A DNA stretch of 64,000 nt from contig DCKU01000186.1 in NCBI GenBank assembly GCA_002320455.1, positions 27,014 through 91,013 of the forward strand, in the 5' to 3' direction. This stretch comes from Salinisphaera sp. UBA1666. GTDB lineage: Bacteria > Pseudomonadota > Gammaproteobacteria > Nevskiales > Salinisphaeraceae. The notes beneath the pieces are model-generated. The model did not search any database and was not told the origin of the DNA. It worked only from the letters and a program-made list of their open reading frames with translations. A program made the position numbers and the translations under genes. Shown piece by piece: positions 52,624 to 62,764 of the stretch (position 1 is the stretch's first letter; each line of letters starts with the position of its first letter).

Positions 52624-52711
52624 AGCAGTTGCCCGGTCAAGCCCGGCGGCGGTGAAACCTGTTTGTTCACCGTAGAGACGCTCAATTGATCACGGCGTGA
52701 GACCGGGTAAG

Positions 52712-54961
52712 CGTCCCAGCTGCGCACGCGTCAGCGAACAGGCGGTCTCGTCACTGCTGTTTATTGGTTCTTTTTTGATCTGCCCATGCGGCAGCGAACT
52801 GGCGGGGTCGACTTTACCCCATCCCGATGCTTTTCTGAGCTGCCTACGCGGCAGCGAACCAGGTACAGGTGTTGCCGTGCAATTGTCGGATTTTCTGAGC
52901 TGCCTACGCGGCAGCGAACCACGCGGCTGGCCTCTTGTGCGGTTGGGAAGTTTTCTGAGCTGCCTACGCGGCAGCGAACGGAAACCGTATTCAACTGGCT
53001 CAACGCCGTCTTTTCTGAGCTGCCTACGCGGCAGCGAACGACCGGCCAATCACCTGGCGCCTGATGAGTATTTTCTGAGCTGCCTACGCGGCAGCGAACC
53101 TGGCGATGTCTGACGCCGGCGAACACCTGTATTTCTGAGCTGCCTACGCGGCAGCGAACGCGGTTTCGCAGCGCGAGGCTGCCGCCGAGCATTTCTGAGC
53201 TGCCTACGCGGCAGCGAACGACATGACATCCAGCTTGGGCGCGCCGTCACTTTTCTGAGCTGCCTACGCGGCAGCGAACGCGCGTTTCAAACGATCCGAC
53301 AAGAAGGCCAATTTCTGAGCTGCCTACGCGGCAGCGAACGAAACGGTGAACCTATGGGACTAATTTTCGAATTTCTGAGCTGCCTACGCGGCAGCGAACG
53401 CCAGGTCGGCCATGGCGTCGGTGACGTCGGCTTTCTGAGCTGCCTACGCGGCAGCGAACATCGATTACGTCTTAGATGGATCCAGGCCCGATTTCTGAGC
53501 TGCCTACGCGGCAGCGAACAGCCATTCGAGCAGGGGAAGAATGATCGCGTCTTTCTGAGCTGCCTACGCGGCAGCGAACAGTAGATTGAAAGGTTGTCCG
53601 GCGCAGTGATCATTTCTGAGCTGCCTACGCGGCAGCGAACTGCGGGCAGCTTGTCGATATCGATGGCGTTTATTTCTGAGCTGCCTACGCGGCAGCGAAC
53701 GCGATCACGGTTTACTTGACCAATCCCCGAGATTTCTGAGCTGCCTACGCGGCAGCGAACAATGATCGTAGCCACGTTGGCCTCGTTCAGCATTTCTGAG
53801 CTGCCTACGCGGCAGCGAACAGCCGTGGCATGTCCCCGCTGCGCGTCATTCATTTCTGAGCTGCCTACGCGGCAGCGAACGGTTTGTCGGTGCTGGCGAC
53901 CGTTTCGCCGGTTTTCTGAGCTGCCTACGCGGCAGCGAACGCGGGAATGATGAACCCGGCACCGAACGCTGTTTTCTGAGCTGCCTACGCGGCAGCGAAC
54001 TCGCCCTTTGAATGGGTGCCGTAATTCGCAAATTTCTGAGCTGCCTACGCGGCAGCGAACTGATCCTTCGTATCAGCATGTCCAAGCTGCAATTTCTGAG
54101 CTGCCTACGCGGCAGCGAACCCCCGCTACTGGGCGAGGAGATGATTGACACATTTCTGAGCTGCCTACGCGGCAGCGAACGCCAGGAGGAAATCAATCCC
54201 GCGATGCCTATGTTTCTGAGCTGCCTACGCGGCAGCGAACGGATCGAACGCTTCACCTTTCCGCTTGATATATTTCTGAGCTGCCTACGCGGCAGCGAAC
54301 GGTTCGACGGAAATGATCGCTCGCTTCTTAGAGTTTCTGAGCTGCCTACGCGGCAGCGAACTCGGACTCGGCGGATAGCTCGGCCCGCATTGTTTTCTGA
54401 GCTGCCTACGCGGCAGCGAACCGTGCGCGTGCGGCCGGACAACTACGACAACTTTTCTGAGCTGCCTACGCGGCAGCGAACACGGGCGTGATCACGCTGG
54501 CCAACTTCCCGGTTTTCTGAGCTGCCTACGCGGCAGCGAACATGCTTGAGATGCGCGATGCGCTGAGCCCCGATTTCTGAGCTGCCTACGCGGCAGCGAA
54601 CGAGCACTGCAGCGCTCACGCTCGCCGCCCCATTTTCTGAGCTGCCTACGCGGCAGCGAACCGATCCGCTGCGCCGTCATTGGCACGGAATCGTTTCTGA
54701 GCTGCCTACGCGGCAGCGAACCGTCTTCTGCCGTGATTGTCTGATAACCAAACTTTCTGAGCTGCCTACGCGGCAGCGAACACGACGGCAGTGAACGAGC
54801 CCAAGGCGGAGCTTTTCTGAGCTGCCTACGCGGCAGCGAACTGCAGCCGGTCGGCGCGCTCGGCCGCCTCGCTTTTCTGAGCTGCCTACGCGGCAGCGAA
54901 CTTCCTACAGCTCGTCGCGTAATCAATCAGACATTTCTGAGCTGCCTACGCGGCAGCGAAC
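52712..54961 (-). CRISPR. Type I-F CRISPR array, repeat GTTCGCTGCCGCGTAGGCAGCTCAGAAA (28 nt); 36 identical repeats (52832-54961) plus 2 degenerate trailer repeats; 37 spacers of 32 nt (two of 33 nt)
   Basis: 60-nt periodicity directly visible; CTGCC/GGCAG Cas6f hairpin; leader on the cas side, degenerate repeats at the far end. Confidence 0.99.
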
Positions 54962-56709: not shown

Positions 56710-57672
56710 TTAGTTCGCGTGGTGTTTGGCGTAGTCGTTATTGAGTCGATAGGCGCCCTGGTCGAGATCGTTGTCGACATACCAGAGCAGGGCCTCCGGG
56801 CGGTTCAGCCGATGTGGGCTCACCCATTGGCCGATGGAGTAAAGGCTCTCGACAAAGCGAAACGGCGTAGTCGTGTCGCGTGCCCTGGCGACCCCGCCCG
56901 CCTCGTGTAGCGAGCCAAGTGCGCCGTAGCCGATCGGGATCGGGACATGCCAGCCGGGACGGCTGCGGATTTGCCACTGCCCGCGCGCCTCGTCGTCGTC
57001 GACGTGGTACTCGTGATGCAGGCGAGCGAAATCCAGCCAAGCGTCCAGCAAGCTCGCGTTGGCATTGTCTTCGCGCAGCTCGTCGAGCCGGCTGTGTAAT
57101 GCCGGTTCGTTGAGCACGAGCGTGAAACCCGGCAACAGCGCGTGTTTAAGCTTGCGAAAGGCTTGCTCGTAGTCGTGCGCGTCGTCGGACAGGGCGATCA
57201 GCCTCGGCTGTGAACGGCGATCGGTGCGGCTGTTACCGATGACGCTGCCGCCCGCCATACGCATCCCGTGGACGCGATCGTCGATACGCCGGGCCAGTTC
57301 GTCGCGGTCGGCCACGCTATCGGCGCAGCGGTCGCCGCTGACCGAGAACACCAGCGAGATCTCCATATGCATCCGGCCTTCCTCGGCAATAGCGGCGGTC
57401 TTGCCATCCTTGCCGACCGGATTACGCGTCAGGTGAAACTGTTGCAGGTTGTAGCCCGCCGACGACGACTGCACTTCATGCGAGTGACAGACCACGCCCA
57501 CGCCATCGAAGGCCAGCCAATCGTCATCGGGCAGCGCACGCTCGAGCGCATGCATAAAACCGACGAACGCGCTCATCGCCGGGAAACCCCAGGTCATGGG
57601 GCTGGAGATCGCATTCGCGTTTTGGATCTTCAGATAGGGCAGCACGAGAAGATGGCGCGGTTTATTCATCAT
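56710..57672 (-). CDS. csy2: Type I-F Cas5f/Csy2
   Basis: IQNANAISSP.TWGFP, LTRNP, EEGR.H, AGGSV, GW.VPIPIGY, RD..TPFRFVES..G.W.SPHR. Confidence 0.96.
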   Translation of the reverse strand: MMNKPRHLLVLPYLKIQNANAISSPMTWGFPAMSAFVGFMHALERALPDDDWLAFDGVGVVCHSHEVQSSSAGYNLQQFHLTRNPVGKDGKTAAIAEEGRMHMEISLVFSVSGDRCADSVADRDELARRIDDRVHGMRMAGGSVIGNSRTDRRSQPRLIALSDDAHDYEQAFRKLKHALLPGFTLVLNEPALHSRLDELREDNANASLLDAWLDFARLHHEYHVDDDEARGQWQIRSRPGWHVPIPIGYGALGSLHEAGGVARARDTTTPFRFVESLYSIGQWVSPHRLNRPEALLWYVDNDLDQGAYRLNNDYAKHHAN

Positions 57673-59020
57673 CGTCGATAACCTCCGCGAACCCGGCCAG
57701 TTCGGCTTGCAACTCGTATTGCCAGTCGCGATAGGCGGCGGCTAGCGTTGCCATGTTCTCGTCCCGAGCGGCCGATTTCGCGAAATGCCGATGCTCCGGA
57801 TCGCCCATGGCCAGCTTCCAGAAGTACTCGAGCCGCCCGTTGAGCCAGCGGCTGAAGTCTTCGCACACCGTGGAAAGCCAGTCGATATCGGCCATTTCCG
57901 CTCGAAAGTCGGCGTCTTCTGTGGCTCGAAAAGGATCGAGCCAGCACTGATGGGCGAAGGCGAGCCGGCAATGCCAGTCGTCAGTCCAGCCCGGCGGCAG
58001 TTGTTGCATTTCAGAGGTGAAGACGATCAGTTCGTCGACCAGGGCACGGGTGAGTTCGTCTCGCCGGTCACGGGTGCCCATGTTGGGTTCGGGATTGCCT
58101 GCTAGCAGCCGGCCAAGAGAACGTACATTCCGCCGAACATCTGGGCGCCGCCCGAACACTGTGAAGGCAGACGATCCACGAATCGGCGCGATATGTCGCG
58201 AGCGCCATGTCGGTGGCGCGCAGCTCAACAGATAACTGTTGCCGCCGCGTTCGCTGTTCAGTTGCGAGATGTTTTGCGGCTTGCTGCCACCGAAGCGTTG
58301 TACCGCCAGCCCGGGATAATCCACGAAGCCATGGTCGTCGGGGTGATCTTTCTTGCGTGCCTCTCGAGCCGCCTTGGCGTTGTCAGAAAACCGGTCGTCA
58401 TTGATCGTGCGAAAGACACGATGCGCTAGCGACGTGGCATAGAGCGGCGAAATCAGATGAAACGCGTCGTCGAGCGATGGGTCGTCGCCCACCAGCCAGT
58501 AGAGCTGTTTGCCGCGTTTGTGCGAAGACCATTCGCCCGAGGGCTCGGTAATGGTCGCGAAATCGCGCATCAGCTTGGCACCCGTGTCGGCGTCATCACT
58601 CAACGCTGCCGCGAGTTGTGCATCGCCTTGTTCGACCCGCTCCAGCAGCGTCTGGCCGTCGTGTTCCAGCTTGAGGAACTTGAATACATCGAGCGCGGCG
58701 GCGTTGCCGACTACATCCACCGTGAATGCATCGCCCAGCGCGTGCGTGCCGATGGTTTGCGACGGAGTGTCGGAGGCGGGCGGGGCGTAGAGACTGCTGC
58801 CCTTGGCATCCGGATGAACCGGCTTGAGCGAGTGGGTGACGACCTGGAGCTGAGAGACGCGTTGCGCTGCGTTGGCTAGCCAGGTGTCGTAGTTGAATTG
58901 CTCGGTGAGCTTTTGGTGTTGCGGGTCGTCGGGCGACAGCTTCTCGGTTTTAGCCGAAAATCGCTCGCCCAAGAAGCGCTCGATCGTTGATCGAAGCGAG
59001 TCCGCTTGGGTTTGGGGCAT
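57662..59020 (-). CDS. csy1: Type I-F Cas8f/Csy1
   Basis: THSLK..HPDAKG, DVVGNAAALDV, KQLYW, PLYATSL, GGSKPQNISQLNSERGG; GAGGAG RBS. Confidence 0.96.
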   Translation of the reverse strand: MPQTQADSLRSTIERFLGERFSAKTEKLSPDDPQHQKLTEQFNYDTWLANAAQRVSQLQVVTHSLKPVHPDAKGSSLYAPPASDTPSQTIGTHALGDAFTVDVVGNAAALDVFKFLKLEHDGQTLLERVEQGDAQLAAALSDDADTGAKLMRDFATITEPSGEWSSHKRGKQLYWLVGDDPSLDDAFHLISPLYATSLAHRVFRTINDDRFSDNAKAAREARKKDHPDDHGFVDYPGLAVQRFGGSKPQNISQLNSERGGNSYLLSCAPPTWRSRHIAPIRGSSAFTVFGRRPDVRRNVRSLGRLLAGNPEPNMGTRDRRDELTRALVDELIVFTSEMQQLPPGWTDDWHCRLAFAHQCWLDPFRATEDADFRAEMADIDWLSTVCEDFSRWLNGRLEYFWKLAMGDPEHRHFAKSAARDENMATLAAAYRDWQYELQAELAGFAEVIDDDE

Positions 59021-59059: not shown

Positions 59060-59088
59060 GAGGCGCAGAGCAGTGATCTCTGCGCCTC
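59060..59088 (-). other. Perfect 11-bp stem-loop immediately after the mini-ORF
   Basis: Minus strand GAGGCGCAGAG-atcactg-CTCTGCGCCTC; only AGTTT follows, so not a canonical terminator. Confidence 0.8.
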
Positions 59089-59091
59089 GTT

Positions 59092-59133
59092 CTATGCGGG
59101 CCGCCATATTAAGACGGCATGCTCGCTAGACAT
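59092..59133 (-). CDS. 13-codon mini-ORF MSSEHAVLIWRPA (candidate CreT-like toxin RNA ORF or leader peptide)
   Basis: Perfect SD TAAGGAGG (59149-59142) 8 nt before ATG; tandem rare codons TTA-ATA; TAG at 59094-59092. Confidence 0.6.
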   Translation of the reverse strand: MSSEHAVLIWRPA

Positions 59134-59229
59134 GGCGCTTTCCTCCTTATCCAAATTGAACCGTTGGATTCGGCGCGACCGTGTAAAATCGCTGCTTGTC
59201 GCGGCGGCGCTGCAACGCCGCCGCAATTT

Positions 59230-59258
59230 AGTAAATCAGGAGTCCTAACTTTAGTCAA
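59230..59258 (-). promoter_or_regulatory. Predicted sigma70 promoter for the mini-ORF/csy transcript
   Basis: TTGACT (59258-59253), 17 bp, TGn-extended TTTACT (59235-59230); predicted start near 59224 coincides with the first base of a GC-rich 5' hairpin. Confidence 0.6.
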
Positions 59259-59280
59259 CCAGACTGTCGCTAGCTCAAAC
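59259..59280 (+). promoter_or_regulatory. CC-PAM plus 20-nt target site of the mini-array spacer
   Basis: CC-AGACTGTCGCTAGCTCAAAC versus spacer AGACTGTCGTTTGCTCAAAT, 17/20 identical. Confidence 0.8.
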
Positions 59281-59315
59281 TGAAGCGGGAATGCCCATTG
59301 TTTCGCTATCATCCG

Positions 59316-59391
59316 GCTGGCAGCCGCATAGGCTGCTCAGCAAAGACTGTCGTTTGCTCAAATGTTCGCTGCCGCATAGGCAGCCCTTAGC
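59316..59391 (+). ncRNA. crRNA-like regulatory RNA (CreA/CreR-like mini-array): variant repeat, 20-nt spacer, variant repeat
   Basis: GCTGGCAGCCGCATAGGCTGCTCAGCAA (59316-59343), spacer 59344-59363, GTTCGCTGCCGCATAGGCAG (59364-59383); both Cas6f hairpins intact; opposite strand to the cas genes and the main array. Confidence 0.85.
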
Positions 59392-62300
59392 GTTTTTTGA
59401 AGCCGAGCCAGGGATGGCTTAACCATCCCTGGCCTGTTTCGTCATCCCCTCTGAGCTGCAACGTGCCGAACGTCCGCGCGCAGGCATCCAGCGCCATGTC
59501 CCGATCGTCTGCCAGCCGTTGTAGTTCGGTCATGTAGTCGACGTTGGCCCACGGGCTGATGCGCTCGGCCCGCAGCTCGGCATCCGGCACGCGCTCATTG
59601 AAGCGTTGCTCGACTTCCGTCTCGATCGGCGGGCCTTTTTTCTGTTGCTCCGTATGCACCAGTCGGTAGTCGGTGTCGTCTTCGTCCGGCAAGAGGACGA
59701 GGTCGATCGTCGCGCTGTGTTGTTTTCGGAACCGCTGCTGTTGGGGAAGCACGCCAGTCAGCCACAGCTCCGGGCGGCTATAGGCACTGTGGGCCGCCAG
59801 CTCTGGCGGTTCGGGTTTCAGCAACGCGGCGCGGCGGCCCCGCGAGCGATTGGCCGTCGGTGATGAATTCGCGCTGACGTTGGGCGCGAGTAGCGCGGCG
59901 GCCATGCGGGCGTGTTCCAGATCGGTCAGGCGGTGGCTTGGTTCCAGCGGCTCGCGTGCCGTGAGGCGCGGCCGGGAATCGATCACGTGGTATTCGTCGT
60001 CGCGGAGCAGGTCAGTAAGCCGGCGGCTGGTCAGATAGTGATCGCCATCCTCGAAGCCCGGGCGGACGAAAACGCGCTCGTTGGCCCCGCCAGCAACGGC
60101 CCGCCAATTACGGTCGAGCAACACGATATTGGGTTCGCCCACCGCGCCCACGCGATGACGACGCACGCGGCCGGCCAGCTGGATAATCGAGCGCATGGAG
60201 GACGGCTCGACCACCGCCCAGTCGTAGTCATGATCCCGGCCGACTTCGGTGACTGGCGAGCCGAGTACGATGAACAGCTGATCGGCTTCGGTGGCGGTGT
60301 CGAGGCGTCGTCGTATGTTGGGTAACTGATAGACCGCCTCCGGCACGTGTCGATCGAGCGCGTCGTCCAGCGTGCGCTCGATTGCCGCACGCGACAGCAG
60401 TGGGAATTGCGAGTGGTAGACACAGAGATGGATGCGGCAATCGGGCGGTGCGTCACTGGCATATATCGCGCGGGCGACGTCGAACAGCGGGCCGATATTG
60501 GCCATGCGGATCAGGCCGAAGCTCACGCGATGGCCGGTCGCGCTGTCGGTTTCGTGGTGTCGGTCGTGCAACCTGCGCGCCTCGGTCACAAGCTGCTCGG
60601 CGAATTGCTGCGGTAGTTGGCGGCGCTTGGTCGGGGTGAAGGCGATGGGCGTGATCTCGCCGCGCCGCCGAACGGTGTCGCCGGCGAGCTCGTTGGCGCG
60701 CTGCCTGGCGAAGTCGTCATGAGCCGCCCGAAAACGTGCTGTGTCAGCACAGTCCACTTGTTGTCGGTCGTGTTCGTCGAACCAGGCACAACAGATGTCG
60801 ATGGCCTGGCCCGGTTCGCCGCGGTTCTTTTGGAATTCCGCCCGGCCGGATCGATAGGCACGAAACAAGCCTTCGACCATGGCCGGCGGCAGCGTGGCCG
60901 AGGACAGCACCACGCGGGAACCGAGCAGGCCGGCCCAATATACGAGTCGCGTGAGTGCGGGCATGTCGGCCATGCCGAAATCGTCGGGCTCGTCCAGGAT
61001 CAAGTCCGCGCTCATCAGGCGCAGCATGGGCGCGATCTGCTGCCCGCCGCGCAAACTTTCGGTAGCCGGCATGAGATGGTCGATCGTGCAGACCAGAATC
61101 GGCGCGCTGAGCAACGAGCGGGCGTGGGACGATTCGATAACCTTCGACAGCAACGGATGCTGATCGAGCTGGCCGTCGTAGTGCACGTAGCTGTCGCTAT
61201 CAAGCAGCGGTTCGGCCGAGGCGGCACCGCGCGCGTCGAGTTCTGCCTGGCGTTGTGCGAACAGAGCGCGCGTGGCCTGGCCGCCGACGCGAACCGCCAG
61301 ATGATCGCTCGATAGATTGAGATCCCGCCGGTAGGTGTTGCCGGTCTGCAGCGTCAGCGTGCGCAGGCCGAGCGCGATGGTAAAGCGAGTGCCACGGTCG
61401 GGATCAGCCAGCGCATAGCAGATGCGGCCGTTGGCCAGCGTCTTTCCGCAGCCGGTCGAGGCCATGTTGACGCCGAAAAACCCTTGTCTGTCGCTGCGCT
61501 CTCGCAGCGATGCGGATAGATCGAACGCCCGATCCTGCCACCGAAAGCGCGGGTTGGCGCTGCGTTTGCGAAAGCCCTTGTGGCGCGCGATGCGAGGTAG
61601 AGCAGCCACCATGTCGGGCAGCCGATGGGTAATTTCGCCGACCTCGCGAGTAACACCCAACAGGTGATCATCCAGCCGTTGGGCGAGCCGTCCGCTCTTG
61701 TCGGTATTCGCGAACAGCGGGTAGTCCGGGTCGCCCGCGGTCGGGCGGGTTTGCGCGTGATTGCTTTGGCTGGAGTAATGATGGTCAGCCAGCATCAGGC
61801 TCAAGCGCGCGATATGCAGCGCGAAGACGTTGTCCGGAGCCACGTGACCGAGCGCGGTGTGACGATCGAGTGCCTGCCTGGCGAGCCGTCGCGCGCGTTT
61901 TTTCCACGCGTTGCTGCGTGACGGTAAGCCCTCGGGGAAATGCCAGTAGGGGGCAATGATTGTCCGGTCGCGGGGCGCATCGATCTCGTTCCAGGCCGCT
62001 TCGATGCCGCCGGGCAACGTGGGTAACGAGGCGGCGTTGATATGGGTCGCGGCGCGACCGATCGGTTTTTGCTCGCCGTCGTCCCCAATGCTCGGAACCA
62101 CGGGCAGGCGGTGGTGCGACAGGATCAACCAGGCGACGATTTTTGCGAACGCCGGCAAACCCGTCATCGGCAGCGGCGCCGCATCATCCATACCGTCGCG
62201 GATCAACCCATCGAGCCAGCCTTGTTCGTCGATGAGGTCTGGCTCGAATAGCCGATTGAGCCAGCCTTGGTCGTCATCGCTGCCAACGAAAGCCTGAAAC

Positions 62301-62764
62301 AGACGCAGCGATATCCATTCGTGGCGATAGCGATTGCGTTCCATGGTCCGAACACGCAATCGGCCTTGAAACGCTTCGCAGGCTTTGCCGAAGTCGTGGA
62401 AGAGCGCGGCCAGACTGGCCGCGAGATGAATTTCCGTCAGCGTGTGCCAGTCGTTCTCATCGGCCTTGCGCAGTATGTCGCTACGGGTGGTATGCGTCGG
62501 TACGGCGCCTTGCGTGTTGAAGCGCGCCGCGTTGCCGACCACCCACAGCAGTTCGCTGTGATTGAGCCCGCGTATCCAGTGACAGGCGACCGCCGTGTTC
62601 TTGCGGGCGGTCTTACGCAGCATTTTGCGCAAAGTATCGAGCCCGGCTTTTGTGATCGGGGTCTGCCAGGTGCGATCCCCACGCCGTTCGGCGAACTGGT
62701 CGAGTATCCGGCGTGTCTCCTTGAGCGCGTTATTTTGGCATTGGGAGACGAGCAGGATGTTCAT
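59387..62764 (-). CDS. cas3: Type I-F Cas2-Cas3 fusion helicase/nuclease
   Basis: MNILLVSQC..NALKETRRILDQFAERRG Cas2 domain, LFHDFGK HD, ADHHYS, MASTGCGKT, LILDEPDD, SSATL, EVGRDHDYD, QLAGRV.RHR. Confidence 0.98.
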   Translation of the reverse strand: MNILLVSQCQNNALKETRRILDQFAERRGDRTWQTPITKAGLDTLRKMLRKTARKNTAVACHWIRGLNHSELLWVVGNAARFNTQGAVPTHTTRSDILRKADENDWHTLTEIHLAASLAALFHDFGKACEAFQGRLRVRTMERNRYRHEWISLRLFQAFVGSDDDQGWLNRLFEPDLIDEQGWLDGLIRDGMDDAAPLPMTGLPAFAKIVAWLILSHHRLPVVPSIGDDGEQKPIGRAATHINAASLPTLPGGIEAAWNEIDAPRDRTIIAPYWHFPEGLPSRSNAWKKRARRLARQALDRHTALGHVAPDNVFALHIARLSLMLADHHYSSQSNHAQTRPTAGDPDYPLFANTDKSGRLAQRLDDHLLGVTREVGEITHRLPDMVAALPRIARHKGFRKRSANPRFRWQDRAFDLSASLRERSDRQGFFGVNMASTGCGKTLANGRICYALADPDRGTRFTIALGLRTLTLQTGNTYRRDLNLSSDHLAVRVGGQATRALFAQRQAELDARGAASAEPLLDSDSYVHYDGQLDQHPLLSKVIESSHARSLLSAPILVCTIDHLMPATESLRGGQQIAPMLRLMSADLILDEPDDFGMADMPALTRLVYWAGLLGSRVVLSSATLPPAMVEGLFRAYRSGRAEFQKNRGEPGQAIDICCAWFDEHDRQQVDCADTARFRAAHDDFARQRANELAGDTVRRRGEITPIAFTPTKRRQLPQQFAEQLVTEARRLHDRHHETDSATGHRVSFGLIRMANIGPLFDVARAIYASDAPPDCRIHLCVYHSQFPLLSRAAIERTLDDALDRHVPEAVYQLPNIRRRLDTATEADQLFIVLGSPVTEVGRDHDYDWAVVEPSSMRSIIQLAGRVRRHRVGAVGEPNIVLLDRNWRAVAGGANERVFVRPGFEDGDHYLTSRRLTDLLRDDEYHVIDSRPRLTAREPLEPSHRLTDLEHARMAAALLAPNVSANSSPTANRSRGRRAALLKPEPPELAAHSAYSRPELWLTGVLPQQQRFRKQHSATIDLVLLPDEDDTDYRLVHTEQQKKGPPIETEVEQRFNERVPDAELRAERISPWANVDYMTELQRLADDRDMALDACARTFGTLQLRGDDETGQGWLSHPWLGFKKR

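What the first reader, a model, noticed from the sequence alone, without database searches (positions are those of the whole stretch)
59259..59391. Hidden antisense mini-CRISPR between cas3 and csy1 whose short spacer targets a PAM-flanked site at the neighbouring promoter
Seen: two repeat variants on the + strand, opposite to the cas genes and the main array. R1 is GCTGG-CAGCC-GCATA-GGCTG-CTCAGCAA; its stem carries a compensatory change (CTGCC/GGCAG to CAGCC/GGCTG) and it keeps an 8-nt 5' handle. R2 is GTTCG-CTGCC-GCATA-GGCAG; it decays just after the Cas6f cut site. The 20-nt spacer AGACTGTCGTTTGCTCAAAT matches 59261-59280 at 17/20, directly after CC. Established: CC is the I-F PAM, Cas7f binds 6 nt per subunit and flips out every 6th base, and short or partial guides bind without licensing Cas3 cleavage. 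The mismatches are at position 12 (a flipped position) and at 10 and 20 (rU:dG wobbles), and 20 nt is exactly two Cas7f subunits shorter than 32. The PAM abuts a TTGACT -35 box. Inference: a 48-nt crRNA-like RNA reprograms a shortened Csy complex into a transcriptional repressor. The CreA/CreR class is described, but this instance would be missed by standard annotation and its novelty cannot be judged from here.
Basis: partly seen in the sequence, partly recalled or inferred. Interest (0 to 1): 0.93.

Follow-up and report, generated by a model that had tools for sequence, protein, structure and literature searches.

The report
CRISPR-guarded RNA toxin with rare codons
Between two CRISPR genes of this bacterium sits a miniature CRISPR whose short guide matches a neighbouring promoter-like site and likely keeps switched off a small RNA predicted to be toxic, a known safeguard design, here with a conserved pair of rare codons that would suggest how this toxin family blocks protein synthesis.

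Summary
The 20-nt spacer's CC-flanked target is the best of 476,851 CC sites in the genome, and guide and target change together in two relatives. Its start-codon hairpin matches the bactericidal CreT RNA of Acinetobacter (PMC10097628). So this is most likely a type I-F CreTA toxin-antitoxin module, a known kind with published cases in the same gap (20-nt spacer, 48-nt RNA). The csy operon is probably co-repressed. Added here: this toxin family occurs well beyond Acinetobacter. In 40 of 45 mini-ORFs found without selecting for it, codons 8-9 are a rare pair (AGA/AGG/ATA/TTA). The window has TTA-ATA, ranks 3 and 4 rarest in its genome. In the source data I read, the synonymous changes at these codons swapped one rare arginine codon for the other, so rare-tRNA sequestration seems untested. 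Nothing here shows expression of the guide, repression or toxicity, and the window's toxin copy is a divergent one.

The parts
59316..59343 (+). psiR1, degenerate I-F repeat; stem CAGCC/GGCTG; gives the 8-nt 5' handle CTCAGCAA (59336-59343)
   Evidence: same handle in L002 and L003
59344..59363 (+). 20-nt guide (psiS) of the predicted CreA
   Evidence: co-varies with the target in relatives
59364..59391 (+). psiR2, conserved to the predicted Cas6f cut after 59383, then decayed; its end overlaps the cas3 stop
   Evidence: weak Rfam CRISPR-DR4 match below threshold
59336..59383 (+). predicted mature 48-nt CreA RNA (8+20+20)
   Evidence: inferred from the I-F crRNA layout reported for WCHA45 CreA; not observed here
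59307..59312 (+). candidate -10 box (TATCAT) of creA
   Evidence: TACGAT and TACGCT at the same distance in L002 and L003; no clear -35; inferred
59259..59280 (+). CC PAM and 20-nt target, 17 of 20 matched
59230..59258 (-). predicted promoter: -35 TTGACT abutting the PAM, 17 nt, TG + TTTACT (non-consensus -10)
   Evidence: family consensus TTGA-17 nt-TA...T in 27 loci; inferred
59199..59226 (-). GC-rich hairpin at the predicted 5' end of the creT transcript
   Evidence: hairpins of different sequence at the same place in L002 and L003
59149..59169 (-). hairpin abutting the Shine-Dalgarno site, with an A-T for C-G compensatory change against relatives
59142..59149 (-). strong Shine-Dalgarno sequence TAAGGAGG
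59092..59133 (-). creT mini-ORF, 13 codons; start codon inside a 5-bp stem (59134-59118) with 7-nt loop CUAGCGA; codons 8-9 TTA ATA (59112-59107)
   Evidence: covariance model built without this genus scores it 22.1 bits, the only hit in the window
59060..59088 (-). 11-bp hairpin after the mini-ORF, weak U tail; likely stabiliser or leaky terminator
   Evidence: conserved with covariation in L002 and L003
57662..59020 (-). csy1 (cas8f), first gene of csy1-4, downstream of creT
59387..62764 (-). cas2-3 (cas3f), upstream flank

Best explanation
This is most likely a type I-F CreTA addiction module: an antisense mini-CRISPR predicted to give a 48-nt guide that would park a shortened Csy complex on a CC-flanked site abutting a -35-like box, thereby likely silencing a predicted toxic RNA and probably the csy1-4 genes behind it. 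Shown in sequence: the two repeats, the guide-target match and its covariation, the Shine-Dalgarno site, the mini-ORF with its start codon in a covarying 5-bp stem, and the rare codon pair TTA-ATA at codons 8-9. Inferred steps: (1) Cas6f cuts both hairpins; (2) Csy with two fewer Cas7f subunits binds but does not license Cas3 cutting; (3) binding blocks RNA polymerase at the -35 box; (4) when Csy is lost or blocked by an anti-CRISPR, the creT RNA is made, loads ribosomes strongly, and stalls them at UUA-AUA, tying up the rare Leu and Ile tRNAs and arresting translation, with the start-codon hairpin as a second required element; (5) read-through past the weak hairpin makes the same switch a feedback loop on csy expression.
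For: Unique best target genome-wide. Guide and target changed together at 4 positions against L002 and 7 against L003, and cross-matches fall from 14-16 to 7-11 of 17. In 48 related guides the mismatches pile up at positions 6 (40) and 12 (37), and a TTG-like box follows the PAM within 4 nt in 38. The window's mini-ORF shares with the toxic WCHA45 CreT the U4:G12 pair, codon 3 AGC and codon 5 CAT; its C5 and A11 are variants that stayed toxic there. A covariance model from 40 loci outside Salinisphaera and Acinetobacter finds the creT of LoGeW2-3, a module reported toxic (31.0 bits), L003 (29.9), the window (22.1) and L002 (19.7). Its one blind hit in 151 genomes lies in a cas3-csy1 gap with a mini-CRISPR. 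Toxin and guide co-occur: 33 of 40 gaps with the mini-ORF have a guide, against 19 of 112 without (kin are not independent). Rare pair at codons 8-9 in 40 of 45 unselected mini-ORFs, 0 in six shifted registers. AGA, AGG, TTA and ATA are the four rarest codons of this genome. Arg pairs and Ile/Leu pairs exchange at least 9 times on a Csy1 tree. Archaeal CreTs kill through AGA-AGA or AUA-AUA, and tandem rare codons kill E. coli.
Against: No direct RNA, binding or toxicity data. The window's copy is divergent: no genome-wide model hit at E 0.1, G at loop position 10 where A10C killed toxicity in WCHA45, and TGG at codon 10 where relatives stop or mostly have G-initial codons. The start-codon stem has a predicted probability near 0 in its local context in all three Salinisphaera copies. 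L002 has only one rare codon (GAG ATA). In WCHA45 a 27-nt truncation that keeps AGA-AGG lost toxicity, and single synonymous changes in the hairpin abolished it, so rare codons are not sufficient. The ANC3789 homologue was not toxic in A. baumannii. The -10 box is non-consensus. No csy1 transcription start was mapped.
Confidence: 0.72

Rival explanations
1. The guide works, but only as a Cas-regulating RNA (CreR). It represses the promoter of csy1-4, and the mini-ORF in this strain is a decayed, non-toxic remnant of the family toxin.
For: No separate promoter was found before csy1. The hairpin after the mini-ORF lacks a U-run. RNA contigs from one sample run from 59228-59230 (3 of 4 runs) or 59180 across the mini-ORF into csy1 (contigs do not show one transcript). 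I-F1 mini-arrays repress the Cascade promoter. 19 of 112 gaps without the mini-ORF still have a guide. The window's toxin copy scores low and its stem is not the predicted fold.
Against: The Shine-Dalgarno site, all five stem pairs, the loop core and both rare codons are intact in the window, and the stem and ORF are kept in two relatives with compensatory changes.
Confidence: 0.2
2. It is CreTA, but the toxin acts through the start-codon hairpin and its loop pairing with an rRNA or another RNA during initiation, as proposed for WCHA45. The rare codons only slow ribosomes and are dispensable.
For: Stem complementarity, a start codon and six of seven loop bases were required in WCHA45. The loop begins with a YUNR U-turn-like motif in 36 of 43 members (motif described in PMC6562991). 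The unselected fifth pair forms in 31 of 40 sequences with 20 double changes.
Against: The window's loop CUAGC has no partner at positions 440-560 of a relative's 23S rRNA, and 5-mer partners are too common to be informative (15 to 63 sites). The loop varies more than codons 8-9, and this reading does not explain the concerted AGA-AGA, ATA-ATA and TTA-TTA swaps.
Confidence: 0.3
3. The mini-ORF is not a toxin but a leader attenuator: ribosome stalling at the rare pair couples csy1 expression to tRNA supply.
For: It lies 114 nt before csy1, on the same strand, ahead of a strong hairpin.
Against: Homologues killed cells in trans from a plasmid under a foreign promoter.
Confidence: 0.07
4. The repeats are a decayed relic and the spacer match is accidental, or a trace of local duplication.
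For: psiR2 overlaps the cas3 stop, and 4 same-genus I-F loci have short gaps without the module.
Against: Genome-wide uniqueness; guide-target covariation and mismatches at positions 6 and 12 across 48 loci.
Confidence: 0.02

Closest known systems
Acinetobacter sp. WCHA45 / LoGeW2-3 CreTA, type I-F (Wang et al. 2023, PMC10097628)
   Same: cas3-csy1 gap; divergent creA with two psi-repeats; 20-nt guide, 17 of 20 matched, CC PAM, 48-nt RNA; Shine-Dalgarno site plus mini-ORF with AUG in a 5-bp stem and 7-nt loop; codons 3 and 5 identical; one covariance model finds both.
   Different: Here the PAM abuts the -35 box, whereas in WCHA45 the target is downstream of the start site. Codons 8-9 are TTA-ATA, not AGA-AGG. 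The ORF has 13 codons, not 10. The host is in another order, and the homologues listed in the part of their table I read are all Acinetobacter.
Pseudomonas aeruginosa CreTA1/CreTA2 (bioRxiv 10.64898/2026.06.02.729485)
   Same: Same gap, 20- or 26-nt guides, target upstream of the -35 box, SD + mini-ORF + downstream hairpin; CreTA1 shares its promoter with the cas genes.
   Different: Their toxin is a 15-nt ORF with two proline codons and no rare codons, and the -35 box lies about 30 bp from the target.
Haloarchaeal CreT (H. hispanica AGA-AGA, H. hubeiense AUA-AUA; PMC8501985)
   Same: Tandem rare codons in a strongly translated mini-ORF followed by a stem-loop; AUA and AGA pairs interchange among homologues.
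   Different: Type I-B, archaeal; rare codons near the start; no start-codon stem; no sequence homology tested or claimed.
CreR / I-F1 regulatory mini-arrays (PMC10120712; bioRxiv 10.1101/2023.03.10.532045)
   Same: Antisense mini-array between cas3 and cas8f, short guide, mismatches at 6 and 12, represses without cleavage.
   Different: Described as cas autorepression without this toxin RNA.

Membership tests
CreTA (type I-F) | Two degenerate repeats that keep the Cas6f hairpin and an 8-nt handle around a short guide | tested here: met
CreTA (type I-F) | Partial guide match to a CC-flanked site at a promoter in the same gap | tested here: met
   the promoter itself is predicted and its -10 box is non-consensus
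CreTA (type I-F) | Guide-target covariation among homologues | tested here: met
   4 and 7 co-changed positions
CreTA (type I-F) | Toxin gene downstream of the target | tested here: met
   (candidate by homology)
CreTA (type I-F) | Mature guide made by Cas6f; Csy-dependent repression; toxicity on derepression | not testable with these tools
   only assembled contigs of one RNA sample were available
WCHA45-type CreT | Strong SD and a start codon inside a stem pairing nt 1-4 with 12-15 | tested here: met
   the stem is possible but not the predicted fold in context
WCHA45-type CreT | Loop bases 5-10 as required in WCHA45 | tested here: inconclusive
   5-9 match tolerated alleles; G10 was not tested in the paper, A10C was inactive
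WCHA45-type CreT | Loop pairing with 23S rRNA near G502 (proposed, not shown, in the paper) | tested here: inconclusive
   no partner at 440-560 in a relative's 23S; own 23S unassembled; numbering may differ
tRNA-sequestering CreT (haloarchaeal kind) | Two consecutive rare codons in the mini-ORF | tested here: met
   TTA ATA, ranks 3 and 4 rarest
tRNA-sequestering CreT (haloarchaeal kind) | Toxicity lost on synonymous recoding and rescued by the cognate tRNA | not testable with these tools
   in the source data read, WCHA45 was tested only with AGA to AGG and AGG to AGA
P. aeruginosa proline-codon CreT | Two proline codons directly before the stop | tested here: not met
   ORF reads MSSEHAVLIWRPA
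CreR (cas autorepression) | Targeted promoter drives the cas effector genes | tested here: inconclusive
   no other promoter found, weak terminator, contigs bridge creT and csy1 in one sample

The most novel reading that the evidence does not exclude
The Acinetobacter-type CreT is not a genus oddity but a widespread proteobacterial family of RNA toxins guarding type I-F systems. It kills by a two-part device: a U-turn-like hairpin over the start codon, plus a tandem rare-codon trap at codons 8-9 that evolution swaps among Arg (AGA/AGG), Ile (AUA) and Leu (UUA). That would make it a natural bacterial tRNA-sequestering toxin, including a leucine version, and would revise the published rRNA-pairing model.
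Probability: 0.45. Interest if true: 0.68.

Novelty: new member of a known kind. Interest (0 to 1): 0.48.

Why it matters
The module itself is a further case of a described safeguard that makes cells dependent on their CRISPR effector and punishes anti-CRISPR phages. The value lies in the comparison it opened. The mechanism of the only tested toxin of this kind was called unresolved, and the natural variation found here points to one untested element, a rare-codon pair at fixed position, that a two-codon recoding and a tRNA rescue would settle. The alignment and covariance model also give a way to annotate these 50-nt toxins, which standard pipelines and Rfam miss.

Tried and rejected
(1) Exact-pattern scans for the Salinisphaera pre-SD hairpin: 1 of 401 class genomes, the window's own; 2 named Salinisphaera records; 0 in metagenomes. 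That hairpin's sequence looks lineage-specific. (2) A looser SD+ORF pattern gave 6 hits, 5 of them in unrelated contexts by eye and rejected as chance. (3) Viral scans: 0 hits for the family pattern; one 17-nt hit for handle+seed had no repeat hairpins and was rejected as chance. No phage mimic was found with these two patterns. (4) 23S pairing test uninformative. (5) A pseudoknot between the loop and nt 19-23 was considered; pair fractions were only 22-35 of 43 and the window does not fit. (6) A second conserved hairpin around codons 8-9: the consensus fold shows only the start-codon stem. (7) RNA runs: four runs of one sample, contigs only. All four lack cover at 59231-59338 and three stop at 59228-59230, while a DNA contig bridges 58340-59335; cas3 and cas1 are sparsely covered. 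One study, no strand, and the stop lies 5-7 nt upstream of the predicted start, so this is not used as support for a start site. (8) Consensus promoter scan: none. Rfam: nothing at gathering score among 6 weak hits. (9) Three look-ups in earlier scan notes returned nothing. (10) The hairpin in the cas3 3' end (59407-59433) as a creA terminator: similar in L002, not in L003; left open. Rows dropped: L011 and a second L177 site were left out; L001-L003 were left out of the model on purpose; the tree holds only loci with a rare codon 9 (54 of 55).

Full report
1. Observation. The locus is a complete type I-F system on the minus strand: cas1, cas2-3 (59387-62764), csy1 (57662-59020), csy2-4 and an array of 28-nt repeats. 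The 367-nt cas3-csy1 gap holds, on the plus strand, psiR1 (59316-59343), a 20-nt spacer (59344-59363) and psiR2 (59364-59391). Each repeat is 22 of 28 identical to the array repeat, and psiR2 is 19 of 20 up to the expected Cas6f cut. The spacer matches 59261-59280 at 17 of 20 behind CC, with mismatches at 10, 12 and 20. This is the best of 476,851 CC sites in the 88%-complete genome (next best 15), and 0 of 20,000 shuffled spacers reach 16 within the gap.

2. Relatives show selection on the pairing. Of 61 genomes searched, 14 carry csy1; the closest named records are Salinisphaera. Two same-genus loci, L002 (G001) and L003 (G020), have the homologous gap with guides of 26 and 25 nt. Guide and target changed together at positions 3, 4, 13, 14 against L002 and at 3, 4, 8, 9, 13, 14, 16 against L003. 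Self-matches are 14-16 of 17; cross-matches with the window are 7-11. I then collected 216 loci with a csy1 5' end, 170 unique, 152 with the cas3 end. These are the nearest Csy1 relatives, not a random sample. In 48 with a same-strand target, mismatches fall at position 6 in 40 and position 12 in 37, and a TTG-like box starts within 4 nt of the PAM in 38. In 27 loci aligned on that box the consensus is TTGA, a 17-nt spacer, then TA...T, so the PAM-adjacent hexamer is a -35 box across the family. The three Salinisphaera copies have T instead of A at -11, with an upstream TG, and may be weak promoters. Guide lengths span 13-32 nt; 25 of 51 are 14, 20, 26 or 32, a tendency towards 6-nt steps but no rule.

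3. What the promoter drives. On the minus strand, 125 nt past the PAM, a TAAGGAGG site precedes a 13-codon ORF (59133-59092), followed by an 11-bp hairpin and then csy1. In PMC10097628 (abstract, Results parts 1-3 of 4, Discussion, and parts of supplementary files 4, 5 and 8 read) the Acinetobacter WCHA45 CreT is a bactericidal RNA needing an SD, a start codon inside a 5-bp stem and a 7-nt loop. The window has the same fold: C-1:G16, AUG paired with CAU, U4:G12, loop CUAGCGA. Codons 3 and 5 are identical to WCHA45, and C5 and A11 were tolerated alleles. CreA mismatches at 10, 12, 19 and 20 were tolerated there, which covers all three of the window's. A covariance model built from 40 loci with no Salinisphaera or Acinetobacter sequence scored the LoGeW2-3 creT 31.0 bits, L003 29.9, the window 22.1 (E 0.02, only hit in 64 kb) and L002 19.7, with no hit in three control loci. 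Run blind, it hit 1 of 151 class genomes, and that hit lies in a cas3-csy1 gap with its own mini-CRISPR. It did not reach threshold on the window's whole genome, so this copy is a divergent member. In the alignment 95.5% of cells pair, with 41 double changes (0 of 500 shuffles). Four of the five pairs were selected by my finder; the unselected fifth pairs in 31 of 40 with 20 double changes.

4. The rare-codon pair. The finder asked only for SD, start codon and stem, and gave 48 hits, 45 unique. In 40 of 45 both codons 8 and 9 are AGA, AGG, ATA or TTA; shifting the register by 1-3 nt either way gives 0. Of 81 SD+start sites without the full stem, 10 had the pair, and by eye all 10 are family members with an imperfect stem. 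With a looser stem (58 ORFs), 100 of 116 codons at these positions are those four, and the neighbours ATC, ATT, AAA, AGT, GGA and CGA never occur. In this genome AGA, AGG, TTA and ATA are the four rarest codons (0.76, 0.94, 1.27, 1.61 per 1,000 in 1,338 long ORFs), and the window has TTA-ATA, as does L183. On a Csy1 tree of 54 loci chosen for a rare codon 9, Arg pairs and Ile/Leu pairs exchange at least 9 times across well-supported branches; sister loci L087 and L161 carry AGA-AGA and TTA-TTA. Module swapping between loci could inflate that count. Named hosts include Halomonadaceae, Pseudomonas, Thauera, Ideonella and Alcanivoracaceae. Haloarchaeal CreTs kill by sequestering tRNA through AGA-AGA or AUA-AUA (PMC8501985, passages), and tandem rare codons kill E. 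coli (PMC12362730, passages). The WCHA45 source data list only AGA to AGG and AGG to AGA at these codons, both still toxic, so that test could not reveal a rare-codon role. A 2024 preprint calls the WCHA45 mechanism unresolved (10.1101/2024.01.05.574328, passages).

5. Evidence against. In WCHA45 a 27-nt truncation that keeps both Arg codons was not toxic, and single synonymous changes in the hairpin abolished toxicity, so the codons are at most one of two requirements. The window differs at loop position 10 and codon 10, L002 has one rare codon only, and the start-codon stem has near-zero predicted probability in context in all three Salinisphaera copies (also low in many other members). ANC3789 creT was harmless in the test host. 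The proposed 23S pairing could not be supported. The loop starts with YUNR in 36 of 43 members, a U-turn motif used for RNA-RNA contacts (PMC6562991, passages); its likeness to an anticodon loop is my recollection. Public RNA data were contigs of one sample: they bridge the mini-ORF and csy1 but show neither strand, start nor the guide.

6. Mechanism. Most likely CreTA (0.72): the guide-loaded, shortened Csy complex occludes the -35 box; loss or inhibition of Csy releases a translation-arresting RNA; csy1-4 is probably read from the same promoter, as for P. aeruginosa CreTA1 (10.1101/2024.10.29.618823 and PMC12980059, passages). The main rivals are a guide that only represses csy (0.2) and a toxin acting through the hairpin alone (0.3, overlapping with the CreTA reading). 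That Cas7f binds 6 nt per subunit is established knowledge recalled here; shortened Csy complexes lacking two subunits are mentioned.

7. Novelty. The design is known: Acinetobacter CreTA; P. aeruginosa CreTA1 with a 20-nt guide and an assumed 48-nt RNA (10.64898/2026.06.02.729485, parts 1-2 of 6 and passages); I-F1 mini-arrays in 15% of loci (PMC10120712, passages); CreR (10.1101/2023.03.10.532045, passages); a review (PMC12737573, passages). Seven literature searches listed no paper on this module in Salinisphaera, on this toxin family outside Acinetobacter, or on its codon 8-9 pair. The library lacks most subscription papers, I did not see the bioRxiv supplementary tables or those of PMC10120712, and I read only part 1 of 2 of the WCHA45 homologue table (a search of seven of its eight files found no 'Salinisphaera'). 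Those tables may list the mini-array. Verdict: a real, probably functional new member of a known kind. Interest 0.48, carried mainly by the testable rare-codon hypothesis rather than by the mini-CRISPR.

Noticed in passing
window 59339-59358 (+); L002; L003: In all three Salinisphaera guides the variant handle (CTCAGCAA) can pair with the guide itself (window: AGCAAA with UUUGCU, using mismatched positions 10 and 12). Shuffle fractions were 0.08, 0.025 and 0 of 200; not general in the family. It might tune loading against normal crRNAs.
   Followed up: partly
L011 (G017), cas3-csy1 gap of 1,034 nt: A same-genus locus has a different module: a 15-nt guide, PAM next to TTGACA, a mini-ORF with AGA-AGA at codons 6-7, and a stretch upstream that by eye looks like a RelE/ParE-type toxin-antitoxin pair.
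   Followed up: no
L022 and L023, cas3-csy1 gaps of 1.8-2.0 kb; L025: Pseudomonas loci carry what look by eye like HipBA-type (L022, L023) or VapBC-type (L025) toxin-antitoxin genes between cas3 and csy1; L023 also has a repeat-like element.
   Followed up: no
window 59149-59169 (-): The hairpin abutting the SD has a loop (CGGTTCAAT) invariant but for one base in three genomes and resembling a tRNA T-loop (resemblance recalled). Acinetobacter loci have a different hairpin at the same place.
   Followed up: partly
L173 and L189: Mini-ORF candidates with TGG-ATA at codons 8-9; with GAG-ATA, ACA-ATA and GTC-AGA elsewhere, this suggests codon 9 is the more constrained position.
   Followed up: no
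window 52700-52800: The two leader-distal repeats of the main array are degenerate.
   Followed up: no
G008 (L008): csy1 match contains internal stop codons, possibly a broken gene or assembly error.
   Followed up: no
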